A program made the translations under genes and the position numbers. From Chrysomallon squamiferum (Eukaryota; Animalia; Mollusca): a stretch of 64,000 nucleotides of DNA. Of this stretch, positions 29,401-38,400 are shown in pieces (position 1 is the first letter of the stretch; each line of letters begins with the position of its first letter). The stretch covers positions 14,012,001 to 14,076,000 of the forward strand of contig CM022674.1 of NCBI GenBank assembly GCA_012295275.1, in the 5' to 3' direction. The notes under the pieces were generated by a model. The model did not search any database and was not told the origin of the DNA. It worked only from the letters and a program-made list of their open reading frames with translations.

Positions 29401-32400
29401 TCAGAAAAATATTACAAGTGGATAAATACAATTAATATATTACCAGCTGATTTATTTAATTTTTATGGCCTAAATCTTTACTGAAAATAAAGTTTTACAA
29501 AACCAGAGTCTGCCTTTGTATGTTTTTCTTAAGATATGTAAATGTTAATTTTTGTTGAATTTGGAAATCCAGATACATACGCCTACAGAGTGAGACACAC
29601 ATCATACACACATATAAACACACACACACACACAGACACATACATAGATGCTTATAATTCCCATCACACATACAATAACACATCAAACATGACACACATC
29701 AGAGACACACACGTGTAATTAAAGTAAAAACTGACCAATAGCATTCTTCATAACAAGCTGGTTCTGTTGCCACAGCACACTGAACGTCCCCCACCGGGAG
29801 TGGCCAGATGGGATGGGGTGTGTCCGGATCCACCCCCCACAGGCGTACGTGAAGAAGTCCTGACACGGGTCCACGGACCGGTCCATGGCGCTGAGAACCG
29901 AACTTGAAATTGTGATACACTCCGGCGTCAGACAGTAGTCTGCTGTCAAACAAAACAAAAACCATAGTTAGACAGTAGTCTGCTGTCAAACAAAACAAAA
30001 ACCATAGTTAGACAGTAAGTAGTCTGCTGTCAGACAAAACAAAAAACAAAAACCAAAACCAGTTAGACAAGTAGTCTGCTGTCAAACAAAACAAAACCAC
30101 AGTTAGACAGTAAGTAGTCTGCTGTCAAGACAAAACAAAAAAAACCACAGTTAGACAGACAGTAGTCTGCTGTCAAACAAAACAAAAACCAGTTAGACAG
30201 TAAGTAGTCTGCTGTTAGACAGTAGTCTGCTGTCAAAACAAAACAAAACCACAGTTAGACAGTAAGTAGTCTGCTGTCAAACAAAACAAAAACCATAGTT
30301 AGACAGTAAGTAGTCTGCTGTCAAACAAAACAAAAACCACAGTTAGACAGTAAGTAGTCTGCTGTCAAACAAAACAAAAACCACAGTTAGACAGTAAGTA
30401 GTCTGCTGTCAAACAAAACAAAAACCACAGTTAGACAGTAAGTAGTCTGCTGTCAAACAAAACAAAAACCACAGTTAGACAGTAGTCTGCTGTCAAACAA
30501 AACAAAAACCACAGTCAGACAGTAGTCTGCTGTCAAAGAAAACAAAAACCACAGTTACACAGTAAGTAGTCTGCTGTCAAACAAAACAAAAACCACAGTT
30601 AGACAGTAAGTAGTCTGCTGTCAAACAAAACAAAAACCACAGTTAGACAGTAAGTAGTCTGCTGTCAGACAAAACAAAAACCACAGTTAGACATGCTGTC
30701 AAACAAAACAAAAACCACAGTTAGACAGTAGTCTGCTGTCAAACAAAACAAAAAGCATAGTCAGACAGTAGTCTGCTGTCAAACAAAACAAAACCACAGT
30801 AAGTAGTTAGACAAAAGTACAGTTAGACAGTAGTCTGCTGTCAAACAAAACAAAACCACAGTTAGACAGTAAGTAGTCTGCTGTCAAACAAAAAAAAAAA
30901 AACCACAGTTAGACAGTAAGTAGTCTGCTGTCAAACAAAACAAAACCAAAACCACAGTAGTCTGCTGTCAAACAAAACAAAAACCACAGTTAGACAAGTA
31001 GTCTGCTGTAGTCTGTAGTCTGCTGTCAAACAAAACAAAAACCACAGTTAGACAGTAAGTAGTCTGCTGTCAAACAAAACAAAAAACAAAAGTCTGCTGT
31101 CAAACAAAACAAAAACCACAGTTACACAGTAAGTAGTCTGCTGTCAAACAAAACAAAAACCACAGTTAGACAGTAAGTAGTCTGCTGTCAAACAAAACAA
31201 AAACCACAGTTAGACAGTAAGTAGTCTGCTGTCAAACAAAACAAAAACCACAGTTACACAGTAAGTAGTCTGCTGTCAAACAAAACAAAAACCACAAACA
31301 AAACAAAACAAAACCATAGTCAGTAAGTAGTCTGCTGTCAAACAAAACAAAAACCACAGTTAGACAGTAAGTAGTCTGCTGTCAAACAAAACAAAAACCA
31401 CAGTTAGACAGTAGTCTGCTGTCAAACAAAACAAAAACCACAGTTACACAGTAAGTAGTCTGCTGTCAAACAAAACAAAAACCACAGTTAGACAGTAGTC
31501 TGCTGTCAAACAAAACAAAAACCACAGTAAGTAGTCTGCTGTCAAACAAAACAAAAACCACAGTTAGACAGTAAGTAGTCTGCTGTCAAACAAAACAAAA
31601 ACCACAGTTAGACAGTAAGTAGTCTGCTGTCAAACAAAACAAAAACCACAGTTACACAGTAAGTAGTCTGCTGTCAAACAAAACAAAAAAGTAGTCTGCT
31701 GTCAAAGAAAACAAAAACCACAGTTACACAGTAAGTAGTCTGCTGTCAAACAAAACAAAAACCACAGTTAGACAGTAAGTAGTCTGCTGTCAAAGTAGTT
31801 AGACTAGTCTGCTGTCAAAACAAAAAAACAAAAAAAACAAAAACCACAGTTAGACAGTAGTCTGCTGTCAGTAAGTAGTCTGCTGTCAAACAAAACAAAA
31901 ACCACAGTTAGACAGTAAGTAGTCTGCTGTCAAACAAAACAAAAACCACAGTTAGACAGTAAGTAGTCTGCTGTCAAACAAAAAACAAAAAACCACAGTT
32001 AGACAGTAAGTAGTCTGCTGTCAAACAAAAAAAAAAAGACAGTAAGTAGTCTGCTGTCAAACAAAACAAAACCACAGTTAGACAGTAAGTAGTCTGCTGT
32101 CAAACAAAAAAACAAAAACCACAGTTAGACAGTAAGTAGTCTGCTGTCAAACAAAACAAAACCACAAACAAGTAGTCTGCTGTCAAACAAAACAAAACCA
32201 CAGTTAGACAGACAGTAGTCTGCTGTCAAACAAAACAAAAACCACAGTTAGACAGTAAGTAGTCTGCTGTCAAACAAAACAAAAACCACAGTTAGACAGT
32301 AAGTAGTCTGCTGTCAAACAAAACAAAAACCACAGTTAGACAGTAGTCTGCTGTCAAACAAAACAAAAACCACAGTCAGACAGTAGTCTGCTGTCAAACA

Positions 32401-35400: not shown

Positions 35401-38400
35401 CTGTCAAACAAAACAAAACCACAGTTAGACAGTAAGTAGTCTGCTGTCAAAAAAAAAAAAAAACCACAACCACAAAAGTCTGCTGTCAAACAAAACAAAA
35501 ACCACAGTTAGACAGTAAGTAGTCTGCTGTCAAACAAAACAAAAACCACAGTTAGACAGTAAGTAGTCTGCTGTCAAACAAAACAAAAACCACAGTTAGA
35601 CAGTAAGTAGTCTGCTGTCAAACAAAACAAAAACCACAGTTAGACAGTAGTCTGCTGTCAAACAAAACAAAAACCACAGTTACACAGTAAGTAGTCTGCT
35701 GTCAAACAAAACAAAAACCACAGTTAGACAGTAAGTAGTCTGCTGTCAAACAAAACAAAAACCACAGTTACACAGTAGTAGTCTGCTGTCAAACAAAACA
35801 AAAACCACAGTTAGACAGTAAGTAGTCTGCTGTCAAACAAAACAAAAACCACAGTTAGACAGTAAGTAGTCTGCTGTCAAACAAAACAAAAACCACAGTT
35901 AGACAGTAGTCTGCTGTCAAACAAAACAAAAACCACAGTTAGACAGTAGTCTGCTGTCAAACAAAACAAAAACCACAGTCAGACAGTAAGTAGTCTGCTG
36001 TCAAAACAAAAAAAAACCACAGTTACACAGTAAGTAGTCTGCTGTCAAACAAAACAAAAACCACAGTTAGACAGTACAGTAGTCTGCTGTCAAACAAAAC
36101 AAAAACCACAGTTAGACAGTAAGTAGTCTGTCTGTCAAACAAAACAAAACCACAGTTAGACAGTAGTCTGCTGTCAAACAAAACAAAACCACAGTCAGAC
36201 AGTAGTCTGCTGTCAAACAAAACAAAAAAAAAATCAAACAAAACAAAACCAAACAGACAGTAGTCTGCTGTCAAACAAAACAAAAACCACAGTCAGACAG
36301 TAGTCTGCTGTCAAACAAAACAAAAACCACAGTCAGACAGTAGTCTGCTGTCAAACAAAACAAAAACCACAGTCAGACAGTAGTCTGCTGTCAAACAAAA
36401 CAAAAACCACAGTTAGACAGTAAGTAGTCTGCTGTCAAACAAAACAAAAACCACAGTTAGACAGTAAGTAGTCTGCTGTCAAACAAAACAAAAACCACAG
36501 TCAGACAGTAGTCTGCTGTCAAACAAAACAAAAACCACAGTTAGACAGTAAGTAGTCTGCTGTCAAACAAAACAAAAACCACAGTTAGACAGTAGTCTGC
36601 TGTCAAACAAAACAAAAACCACAGTTAGACAGTAGTCTGCTGTCAAACAAAACAAAAACCACAGTCAGACAGTAGTCTGCTGTCAAACAAAACAAAAACC
36701 ACAGTCAGACAGTAGTCTGCTGTCAAACAAAACAAAAACCATAGTTAGACAGTAGTCTGCTGTCAAACAAAACAAAAACCATAGTTAGACAGTAGTCTGC
36801 TGTCAAACAAAACAAAAACCACAGTACAGACAGTAGTCTGCTGTCAAACAAAACAAAAACCATAGTCAGACAGTAGTCTGCTGTCAAACAAAACAAAAAC
36901 CATAGTCAGACAGTAGTCTGCTGTCAAACAAAACAAAAACCACAACAGTAGTCTGCTGTCAAACAAAACAAAAACCATAGTCAGACAGTAGTCTGCTGGC
37001 TGTCAAACAAAACAAAAACCACAGTTAGACAGTAGTCTGCTGTCAAACAAAATAACAATAACAATAACAATAATAATAAAAATAATCATAATAATAATAA
37101 TAATGAAATTATATAAATAATAGTATTAATAATAATAATAATAAAAATAATATTAATAATAATAAATAAATAAATAAAATTAAAATTAATATTAAAATTA
37201 AAATTACATAAGATAACATTATAACAGTAACAAAATAATAATATTCTAATCAGAAAAATAACAACAGTGAAACTAATAGTAATAACTACAATAACAAGGT
37301 TGTAATAAGAACAACAATAATAAAAAGAGACAAACAAATAAATACACAGACAGACAGACAGACAGACAGATGTTTTGAAGCTTCTTGACTAGCTAATTGG
37401 CCGGTGCTTTGTGAAAACAAGAACTTATTTTCAAGTCAGCAGTGATTCAGGTGTTTTTGTCCACAAATTGCAGATTGGCTAATCCAGAAAATAGCAAGTG
37501 ACAAAGAAACTGCTTCCTGCTAAGCTGGAGGCTAGTGAGCCAATCCTGGTTAGGTAAACCTTTTATTGATTTTACAGTCACATGTTAACAAGAAGATACG
37601 ATACAGCTCTGAATAACACCTACATTCATAGCTATTATCACAATTATACACGTGTGTGTGTGTGTGTGAGTGTGTGTGACATTTAACACAAAACATATTA
37701 AATCACAAAAAACAACGAACACATCAAATACAAAAAACACATAGAAAACACAAAAAACTCAACACAAAAAAATAAAAAACACAAAAACATCAAAAACACA
37801 AAATAACACAAAAAGGACAAAACTGAACACAAAAAAACACAAAAAAACACAACATTAAAACAAAAACTGAACACAAAAAACACATCACACAGGACAAAAA
37901 CTCAACACAAAAAACACATCAGACAAGACAAAAACTCAAGCCAAAAAACACATCAGACAAGAAAAAAACTCAACACAAAAAACACATCAGACAGGAGAAA
38001 AACTCAACACAAAAAACACATCAGACAGGACAAAAACTCAACACAAAAAACACATCAGACAAGACAAAAACTCAACACAAAAAACACATCAGACAGGACA
38101 AAAACTCAACACAAAAAACACATCAGAGAGGACAAAAACTCAGCACAAACCTGTTTTGCTGTCTTTGACTGCGACCAGCGCTGACAGCACGATGAGGCAG
38201 ATGATGACGATGATGAGGATGATGATGAGACCTCGCTCAAGAAGTGTGCGCCGCTGCCATGTGGTCAGTCCCCCCTTGAACATGATGCTGGGGTTGAAGT
38301 CGATGGGGGGAGGCGTCCCACCATTGGACATGTCATCATCCTCAAAGTTTGTCCGTTTGTACCTCTGTCCTGACATCTGTAACACAACACAACAATCAGT

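What the first reader, a model, noticed from the sequence alone, without database searches (positions are those of the whole stretch)
29927..37052. A 7.1-kb array made of ~165 copies of a functional 3' splice site (massively amplified acceptor of ECE exon 3)
Seen: on the gene strand each unit reads CTAAC-TGTGG-TTTTTGTTTTGTTTGA-CAG-CAG-ACTAC(TTAC)TGT. That is a branch-point consensus ~25 nt before a U-rich tract, the NAGNAG acceptor and the first ~16 nt of exon 3. The last unit is the real intron/exon junction, and the array makes up ~87% of the 8.2-kb intron 2. The branch-like CTAAC serving the real acceptor is the duplicated copy of exon codons (CTG ACG -> CTA ACT). In the coding frame a 44-bp unit reads ...TGT TTT GTT TGA (stop) and a 40-bp unit shifts frame, so use of a decoy would give a truncated, likely NMD-sensitive transcript. 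Known: first-AG scanning would favour upstream sites, while exon definition favours the site nearest the next donor. Inference: the spliceosome must skip ~160 near-identical acceptors. The array could act as an unproductive-splicing rheostat whose strength scales with copy number, as a U2AF/SF1 sponge, or be a neutral extreme of splice-site tandem duplication.
Basis: partly seen in the sequence, partly recalled or inferred. Interest (0 to 1): 0.85.

Follow-up and report, generated by a model that had tools for sequence, protein, structure and literature searches.

The report
Giant splice-acceptor mirage in snail ECE
A 40-44-base piece spanning an intron end and the start of the next exon of a snail peptidase gene is repeated about 165 times inside that intron, yet the RNA examined joins only to the last, true copy, so it is likely a very large but tolerated example of a repeat type already described in lancelets ("mirage").

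Summary
The array is real. On the minus strand, 165 units of mostly 40-44 bp lie before the true acceptor of an endothelin-converting-enzyme (ECE)-like gene whose best hit is the snail Gigantopelta. Each unit is 24 nt of intron end plus 16 nt of exon 3. The array fills 87% of the 8,208-nt intron, and 119 of 166 upstream acceptors match the real one from -20 to +2. Four DNA runs hold it at high depth, at least about 66 units per single-copy locus in one, so it is no few-copy artefact; unit make-up differs between samples. In 4 of 4 spliced contigs, exon 2 joins the last acceptor at its first AG; no decoy junction appears. All 338 decoy AGs would give premature stops. This is a "mirage" minisatellite as described in amphioxus (PMC3087553); human ABCA7 has a donor-side array of up to 427 units whose length affects splicing (PMC5954066). 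The scan found this class before in other genomes. Exon definition likely picks the last copy. A rheostat or sponge role has no support here, but NMD block was not testable.

The parts
29943..37052 (-). Intronic part of the minisatellite: 165 units, mostly 40/44 bp, each 16 nt of exon-3 start (with or without a 4-nt insertion) plus 24 nt of intron end with branch-like CTRAC, U-rich tract and AG
   Evidence: high depth in DNA runs X1, X2, X4, X5
29927..29942 (-). First 16 nt of exon 3, the exonic half of the repeat unit (authentic copy; codes A-D-Y-C-L-T)
   Evidence: up to 16 nt downstream identity between decoys and real site; the Cys is kept in 12 of 12 homologues printed
29940..29944 (-). 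Authentic NAGNAG acceptor; the first AG (29944-29943) is the one used, so exon 3 starts at 29942
   Evidence: spliced contigs of X3, X9, X6, X8 align to 29946 and then continue with the end of exon 2
29736..29942 (-). ECE exon 3 (207 nt), donor at 29735; the only unit followed by an exon body and donor
   Evidence: joint 29736-29295 in 4 runs
38151..38376 (-). ECE exon 2 (226 nt; cytoplasmic tail and likely transmembrane segment); intron 2 begins with GT at 38150
   Evidence: loose ends of spliced contigs
29943..38150 (-). Intron 2, 8,208 nt, phase 1
37040..37070 (-). 5' edge of the array: a diverged intron end that runs into an (ATT)n-rich tract, then the first AG
   Evidence: sequence, TRF
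8378..38376 (-). Host gene: M13 family ECE-like peptidase, 19 coding exons mapped in this span

Best explanation
The array is a junction-spanning ("mirage") minisatellite that likely arose by a 40-bp tandem duplication across the intron 2/exon 3 boundary and likely grew by unequal exchange or slippage, while the spliceosome joins exon 2 to the last copy in all RNA contigs seen, likely because only that copy is followed by an exon body and a donor (exon definition). Shown: the unit is intron end plus exon start; the signals are intact; the copies cannot be told from the real site by local sequence; the last site is used; the array is high-copy in reads and its make-up varies between samples. 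Inferred: the single duplication origin; the later 4-nt insertion (absent from the 12 5'-most units, present in 102 of 166) and CTGAC-to-CTAAC change spreading by homogenisation; exon definition as the selector; removal of any rare decoy product by NMD; and near-neutrality, tolerated in a window where tandem repeats cover 46% of bases.
For: Unit anatomy and counts. The exonic half codes for a Cys kept in 12 of 12 homologues printed, so the repeat came from the exon and not the reverse. 119 of 166 decoys equal the real site from -20 to +2 and 138 score at least as high on a small matrix from the gene's own acceptors, so the choice cannot rest on the acceptor sequence. Recurrent GT sites in the array score -4.0 to +1.0 bits against 0.4 to 8.2 for 17 of 18 real donors, and the array has no AGGT. 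4 of 4 spliced contigs (X3, X9, X6, X8; 2 studies) use the last acceptor with no break at the junction. In X9 the deepest listed array contig is 7% of the spliced depth, about 0.3% per copy; in X3 array-to-intron-3 ratios (12.6, 12.6, 6.8) are no higher than array-to-flank ratios in DNA run X2 (17.8, 20.6, 6.5). Edge units differ from the core, as reported for amphioxus mirages, which are also reported not to disturb splicing. TRF covers 46% of the window, with 19 merged minisatellites.
Against: All RNA evidence is assembled contigs, which drop rare forms; X6 and X8 are RNA only by their spliced contigs, and their study may be the source of the assembly. No NMD-blocked data exist here. Exon 3's own donor scores only 1.8 bits on the same crude matrix, so the donor contrast is not strong. 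AG is intact in nearly every unit, which neutrality permits but does not require. No orthologous intron or whole genome was available, so age and origin are not shown. The human ABCA7 precedent shows such arrays can alter splicing with length.
Confidence: 0.8

Rival explanations
1. Length-dependent splicing modulator (ABCA7-like rheostat): longer alleles would divert some transcripts to decoy acceptors, intron retention or exon-3 skipping and lower ECE output through NMD.
For: All 338 array AGs give premature stops, so decoy products would be short-lived and hard to see. Signals are intact in most units. Unit make-up differs between samples. Precedent: ABCA7 VNTR length correlates with exon 19 skipping and lower expression (passages).
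Against: No exon-2-to-decoy loose end and no other partner for exon 4's acceptor in 4 spliced runs; array depth in RNA is at background. In ABCA7 itself, use of a repeat-unit splice site did not change with length.
Confidence: 0.11
2. U2AF/SF1 sponge: the nascent intron would bind enough acceptor factors to affect splicing of this or other genes.
For: 125 units carry a CTRAC motif at branch-point spacing before a U-rich tract and AG; the last units show no unusual structure that would hide them (z = -0.71).
Against: Array RNA is about 0.3% of spliced depth per copy in X9; a single-locus intron at that level would hold few factor molecules (inference).
Confidence: 0.03
3. Assembly expansion: the genome holds only a few copies and the 7.1 kb is an artefact.
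For: 23% of array 31-mer positions are singletons and many odd units look like homopolymer errors; the gene has a 1-nt frameshift near 19147. Type-specific read depth in X2 sums to 66 units for five types against about 105 in the assembly, so the assembled length may be a long allele or somewhat inflated.
Against: Four DNA runs of 3 studies hold single array contigs at up to 42, 21, 18 and 29 times flank depth (X1, X2, X4, X5), and the variant types have an ordered, polar layout.
Confidence: 0.03

Closest known systems
Amphioxus 'mirage' minisatellites (globin BflGb6 and BflGb9, Adh3, troponin C, PGBD5); PMC3087553 passages, PMC3902484 passage. The original Adh3 paper was not read.
   Same: Tandem copies of an intron 3' end plus the next exon's 5' start (as in BflGb6); many units keep splice signals; the authentic copy sits at the edge; regular splicing is reported undisturbed; unit length within the 10-72 bp given for Adh3; edge units escape homogenisation.
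   Different: 165 units here against 3-6 at BflGb6; a gastropod, not a cephalochordate; NAGNAG acceptor; no AGGT in the unit, so the proposed intron-gain route through internal donors is not open.
Human ABCA7 intron 18 VNTR (25 bp); PMC5954066 passages
   Same: A splice site amplified into hundreds of tandem units (12 to about 427 units, up to 10.7 kb) that enlarges the intron several-fold; use of a repeat-unit site gives a frameshift.
   Different: Donor side, not acceptor side; length effect on exon 19 skipping and expression was shown there and is untested here; unit retention was detected there (about 2%) and no decoy use was seen here.
Human F7 intron 7 37-bp VNTR; PMC1557585 abstract and Discussion
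   Same: Unit spans an exon-intron boundary; identical pseudo-sites are functional in principle but silent, with position relative to the exon deciding the choice.
   Different: Donor side, 5-9 sites; mechanism tested with mutant constructs there, only inferred here.

Membership tests
Mirage minisatellite | Tandem repeat whose unit spans an intron-exon boundary of the host gene | tested here: met
   24 nt intron plus 16 nt exon 3, 165 units
Mirage minisatellite | Authentic junction is the terminal copy and is the one in the mRNA | tested here: met
   4 of 4 spliced contigs use the last acceptor
Mirage minisatellite | Many units keep the splice signal | tested here: met
   166 upstream GACAG sites, 162 followed by CAG; 119 identical to the real site from -20 to +2
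Mirage minisatellite | Regular splicing is not disturbed | tested here: met
   Met for the dominant steady-state form only; contigs drop rare forms
Mirage minisatellite | Length instability between haplotypes | tested here: inconclusive
   Unit-type ratios differ (main 44-mer to CTATGG 40-mer: 10.9 assembly, 3.2 X2, 1.0 X5) but no read spans the array
Mirage minisatellite | Concerted evolution of the core with divergent boundary units | tested here: met
   Exon-type CTGAC in 11, 1, 3, 1, 2 units per fifth; the 12 5'-most units lack the 4-nt insertion
Length-dependent splicing VNTR (ABCA7 type) | Isoform ratio or expression correlates with allele length | not testable with these tools
   No paired genotype and raw RNA data; only contigs
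Recursive-splicing ratchet points / AGGT proto-splice-site duplication | AG directly followed by GT in the unit (feature recalled, partly) | tested here: not met
   0 AGGT in the array
Micro-exon cassette array | Acceptor followed by a usable donor within the units | tested here: inconclusive
   Recurrent GT sites score -4.0 to +1.0 bits, below 16 of 18 real donors, but the matrix rests on 18 sites; no such form in RNA contigs

The most novel reading that the evidence does not exclude
Splice junctions in this snail lineage seed or trap minisatellites as a rule: besides this array, 4 of 7 other minisatellites in the gene's introns end within 25 nt of a splice site (0.5 expected). The 165-copy acceptor array is then the extreme of a junction-linked process, polymorphic in the wild, whose length tunes ECE output through NMD-hidden decoy use, the acceptor-side counterpart of ABCA7.
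Probability: 0.1. Interest if true: 0.6.

Novelty: new member of a known kind. Interest (0 to 1): 0.27.

Why it matters
It shows that an intron can carry about 165 intact, locally indistinguishable acceptors and still be spliced to the last one, which makes the locus a clean natural test of exon definition in a mollusc. It also warns that short-overhang junction reads and gene predictors will misplace such junctions. The class itself, its tolerance by the spliceosome and even length-dependent effects have precedents, so the gain is in scale and taxon, not in kind.

Tried and rejected
No whole genome is held, so dispersal of the unit elsewhere and a genome-wide test of junction-hugging repeats could not be run. 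A scan of metagenome contigs for a 29-nt unit motif found 0 matches. Other mirages in the gene: of 38 junction 16-mers, only the exon-3 acceptor has repeated copies (163); four donors have a single distant match at 2 mismatches, taken as chance. Structure hiding the decoys: the last 241 nt fold no better than shuffles (z = -0.71). Ratchet or AGGT intron-gain reading: 0 AGGT. Use of the second AG of the NAGNAG: not seen in 4 contigs. Summed depth in the lay tables was not used as a copy number; only single type-specific contigs against flank contigs were, with the identity of 1-mismatch contigs inferred as the commonest variant. X1's baseline may be one haplotype, so its estimate is 60 or 121 units for four listed types. 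X6 and X8 show no array contigs and DNA runs lack cover on exon 4; holes prove nothing. One exon end was off by one base (12946, corrected to 12945), which explains one donor score of -8.7. Six paper searches ran; only 2 papers held mirage, minisatellite and amphioxus together, and none of the 20 of 28 listed names a gastropod mirage in its title or abstract start. PMC10078293 passages added only general context. PMC2812944 was seen as a listing only. Supplements were not opened; those of PMC3087553 hold the mirage alignments.
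Full report
Observation. On the minus strand the stretch 37052-29943 is a head-to-tail array. Splitting at GACAG gives 165 units plus the real junction at 29942; 59 unit sequences occur, the commonest a 44-mer (48 copies), a 40-mer (19) and a 44-mer variant (19). 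All 163 GACAGCAGAC matches of the window lie at 29947-37044. Intron 2 is 8,208 nt, so the array is 86.6% of it.

Host gene. Exon 3 translates to 68 residues with 39 homologues among 40 candidates, all M13 peptidases by Pfam; the closest is the ECE homologue of Gigantopelta aegis at 90% identity, and human ECE-1 is the best solved structure. The organism is therefore likely a related gastropod (inference). tblastn and boundary checks place 19 coding exons between 38376 and 8378. The exonic half of the unit encodes a cysteine kept in 12 of 12 homologues printed, so the repeat was copied from the junction.

Is the array real? Eleven runs were listed and eight were laid on 28950-30078, which holds exons 3 and 4 and the last three units. 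In four DNA runs of three studies, the deepest listed array contigs reach 42, 21, 18 and 29 times the depth of unique flanks (X1, X2, X4, X5). Type-specific contigs sum to about 66 units for five types in X2, 60 or 121 for four types in X1 depending on its baseline, and 35 for four listed contigs in X5; most contigs were not listed, so these are rough lower bounds. The same five types number about 105 in the assembly. A few-copy artefact is excluded; the exact 165 is not confirmed, and 23% of array 31-mer positions are singletons. X4 matches the window's flank without a difference and may be the assembly's source. The ratio of unit types differs between samples: main 44-mer to CTATGG 40-mer is 10.9 in the assembly, 3.2 in X2 and 1.0 in X5, which points to turnover, though no read spans the array.

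Which acceptor is used? X3 and X9 (RNA on record) and X6 and X8 (RNA by their spliced contigs) each give a contig that covers exon 3 to 29946 and continues with the end of exon 2, at depths 114, 132, 174 and 14. The four extra matching letters are the end of exon 2, which fixes the junction at the first AG of the last unit: exon 2 ends at 38151, exon 3 starts at 29942, reading K-T-A-D-Y-C. No RNA loose end with exon-2 letters lies on an upstream unit. Array pieces in RNA are at background: in X9 the deepest listed is 7% of spliced depth, about 0.3% per copy; in X3 they stand at 12.6, 12.6 and 6.8 times an intron-3 contig, no more than the DNA ratios of X2. Contigs drop rare forms and no NMD-blocked data exist here, so low-level decoy use remains open.

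How the last site is chosen. 119 of 166 upstream acceptors are identical to the real one from -20 to +2, 138 score at least as high on a matrix built from the gene's other acceptors, and 15 share 16 nt downstream. Local sequence cannot decide, and the region shows no special fold. What only the last copy has is a 207-nt exon body and a donor at 29735. Recurrent GT sites in the array score -4.0 to +1.0 bits against 0.4-8.2 for 17 of 18 real donors; the matrix is crude and gives exon 3's donor only 1.8. Exon definition is the likely selector (inference from established splicing models). All 338 array AGs would give a premature stop, 336 within the array and 2 downstream, so any error product would likely be an NMD target.

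History. The 12 5'-most units lack the 4-nt insertion found in 102 of 166 units, and the exon-type CTGAC is concentrated in the 5'-most fifth (11 of 18). This fits a 40-bp founding duplication, later variants and homogenisation of the core (inference). The window is rich in such repeats: TRF covers 46% of it and 19 merged minisatellites are present.

Known relatives. Earlier notes of this scan pointed me to the amphioxus mirages, which I then checked in the papers. [quoted passage not shown] PMC3902484 (one passage) repeats this for Adh, troponin C and PGBD5. PMC1557585 (abstract and Discussion) shows silent identical donors in the F7 VNTR. PMC5954066 (passages) describes the ABCA7 VNTR, 12 to about 427 donor-bearing units, whose length correlates with exon skipping and lower expression, while use of a repeat-unit site did not change with length. 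The array meets five of six mirage features tested; length instability is inconclusive. The acceptor arrays in the scan notes that give a count have 7 to 67 copies (unchecked), so this one is large. No gastropod case turned up, which is not proof of absence.

A side result. Of the 7 other minisatellites in the mapped introns, 4 end within 25 nt of a splice site against 0.5 expected from random placement in their own introns (p = 4e-4; 5 of 7 within 50 nt). None copies its junction.

Verdict. A real and unusually long mirage minisatellite with the true acceptor in use. New member of a known kind; interest 0.27. The regulatory reading keeps about a one-in-ten chance until raw or NMD-blocked RNA and allele lengths are examined.

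Noticed in passing
window 9961-10313, 11599-11997, 16094-16743, 37754-38149 (also 13667-14966): Other minisatellites in this gene's introns end 9, 21 and 10 nt before an acceptor or start 1 nt (and 47 nt) after a donor; 4 of 7 within 25 nt against 0.5 expected (post hoc). They do not copy the junction.
   Followed up: partly
window 9961-10313: The last unit of the 28-bp array supplies a CTAAC 26 nt before the acceptor at 9951, the same spacing as in the main array.
   Followed up: partly
window ~19147: One-base frameshift inside a coding exon in a GA-rich run where homologues read through; likely an assembly error, not checked with reads.
   Followed up: no
window ~48871-48857 and ~46732-46721 (- strand): Two short ATG-started segments followed by GTAATT (M-D-A-D-E and M-D-L-P) in frame with exon 2; candidate alternative first exons. 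The first resembles the Haliotis N-terminus.
   Followed up: no
window 29940-29944: The first AG of the NAGNAG is used in 4 of 4 contigs, adding an Ala (K-T-A-D-Y-C) that the Gigantopelta protein lacks (K-T-D-Y-C).
   Followed up: yes
window 29366-29959, run X5: X5 differs from the window at 7 of 236 and 5 of about 308 flank bases and is rich in CTATGG-type units; it may be a distinct population or close species that shares the array.
   Followed up: partly
window 29943-37052: 26 units carry GTAACT 15 nt after the first AG, which would make an in-frame 5-codon micro-exon if used as donor; it scores -0.6 bits and is not seen in RNA contigs.
   Followed up: partly
window 25492-27629, 41988-43902, 47241-48043, 55507-56186, 62828-64000: Further long minisatellites (27-76 bp units, 0.7-2.1 kb) not tied to a mapped junction.
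   Followed up: no
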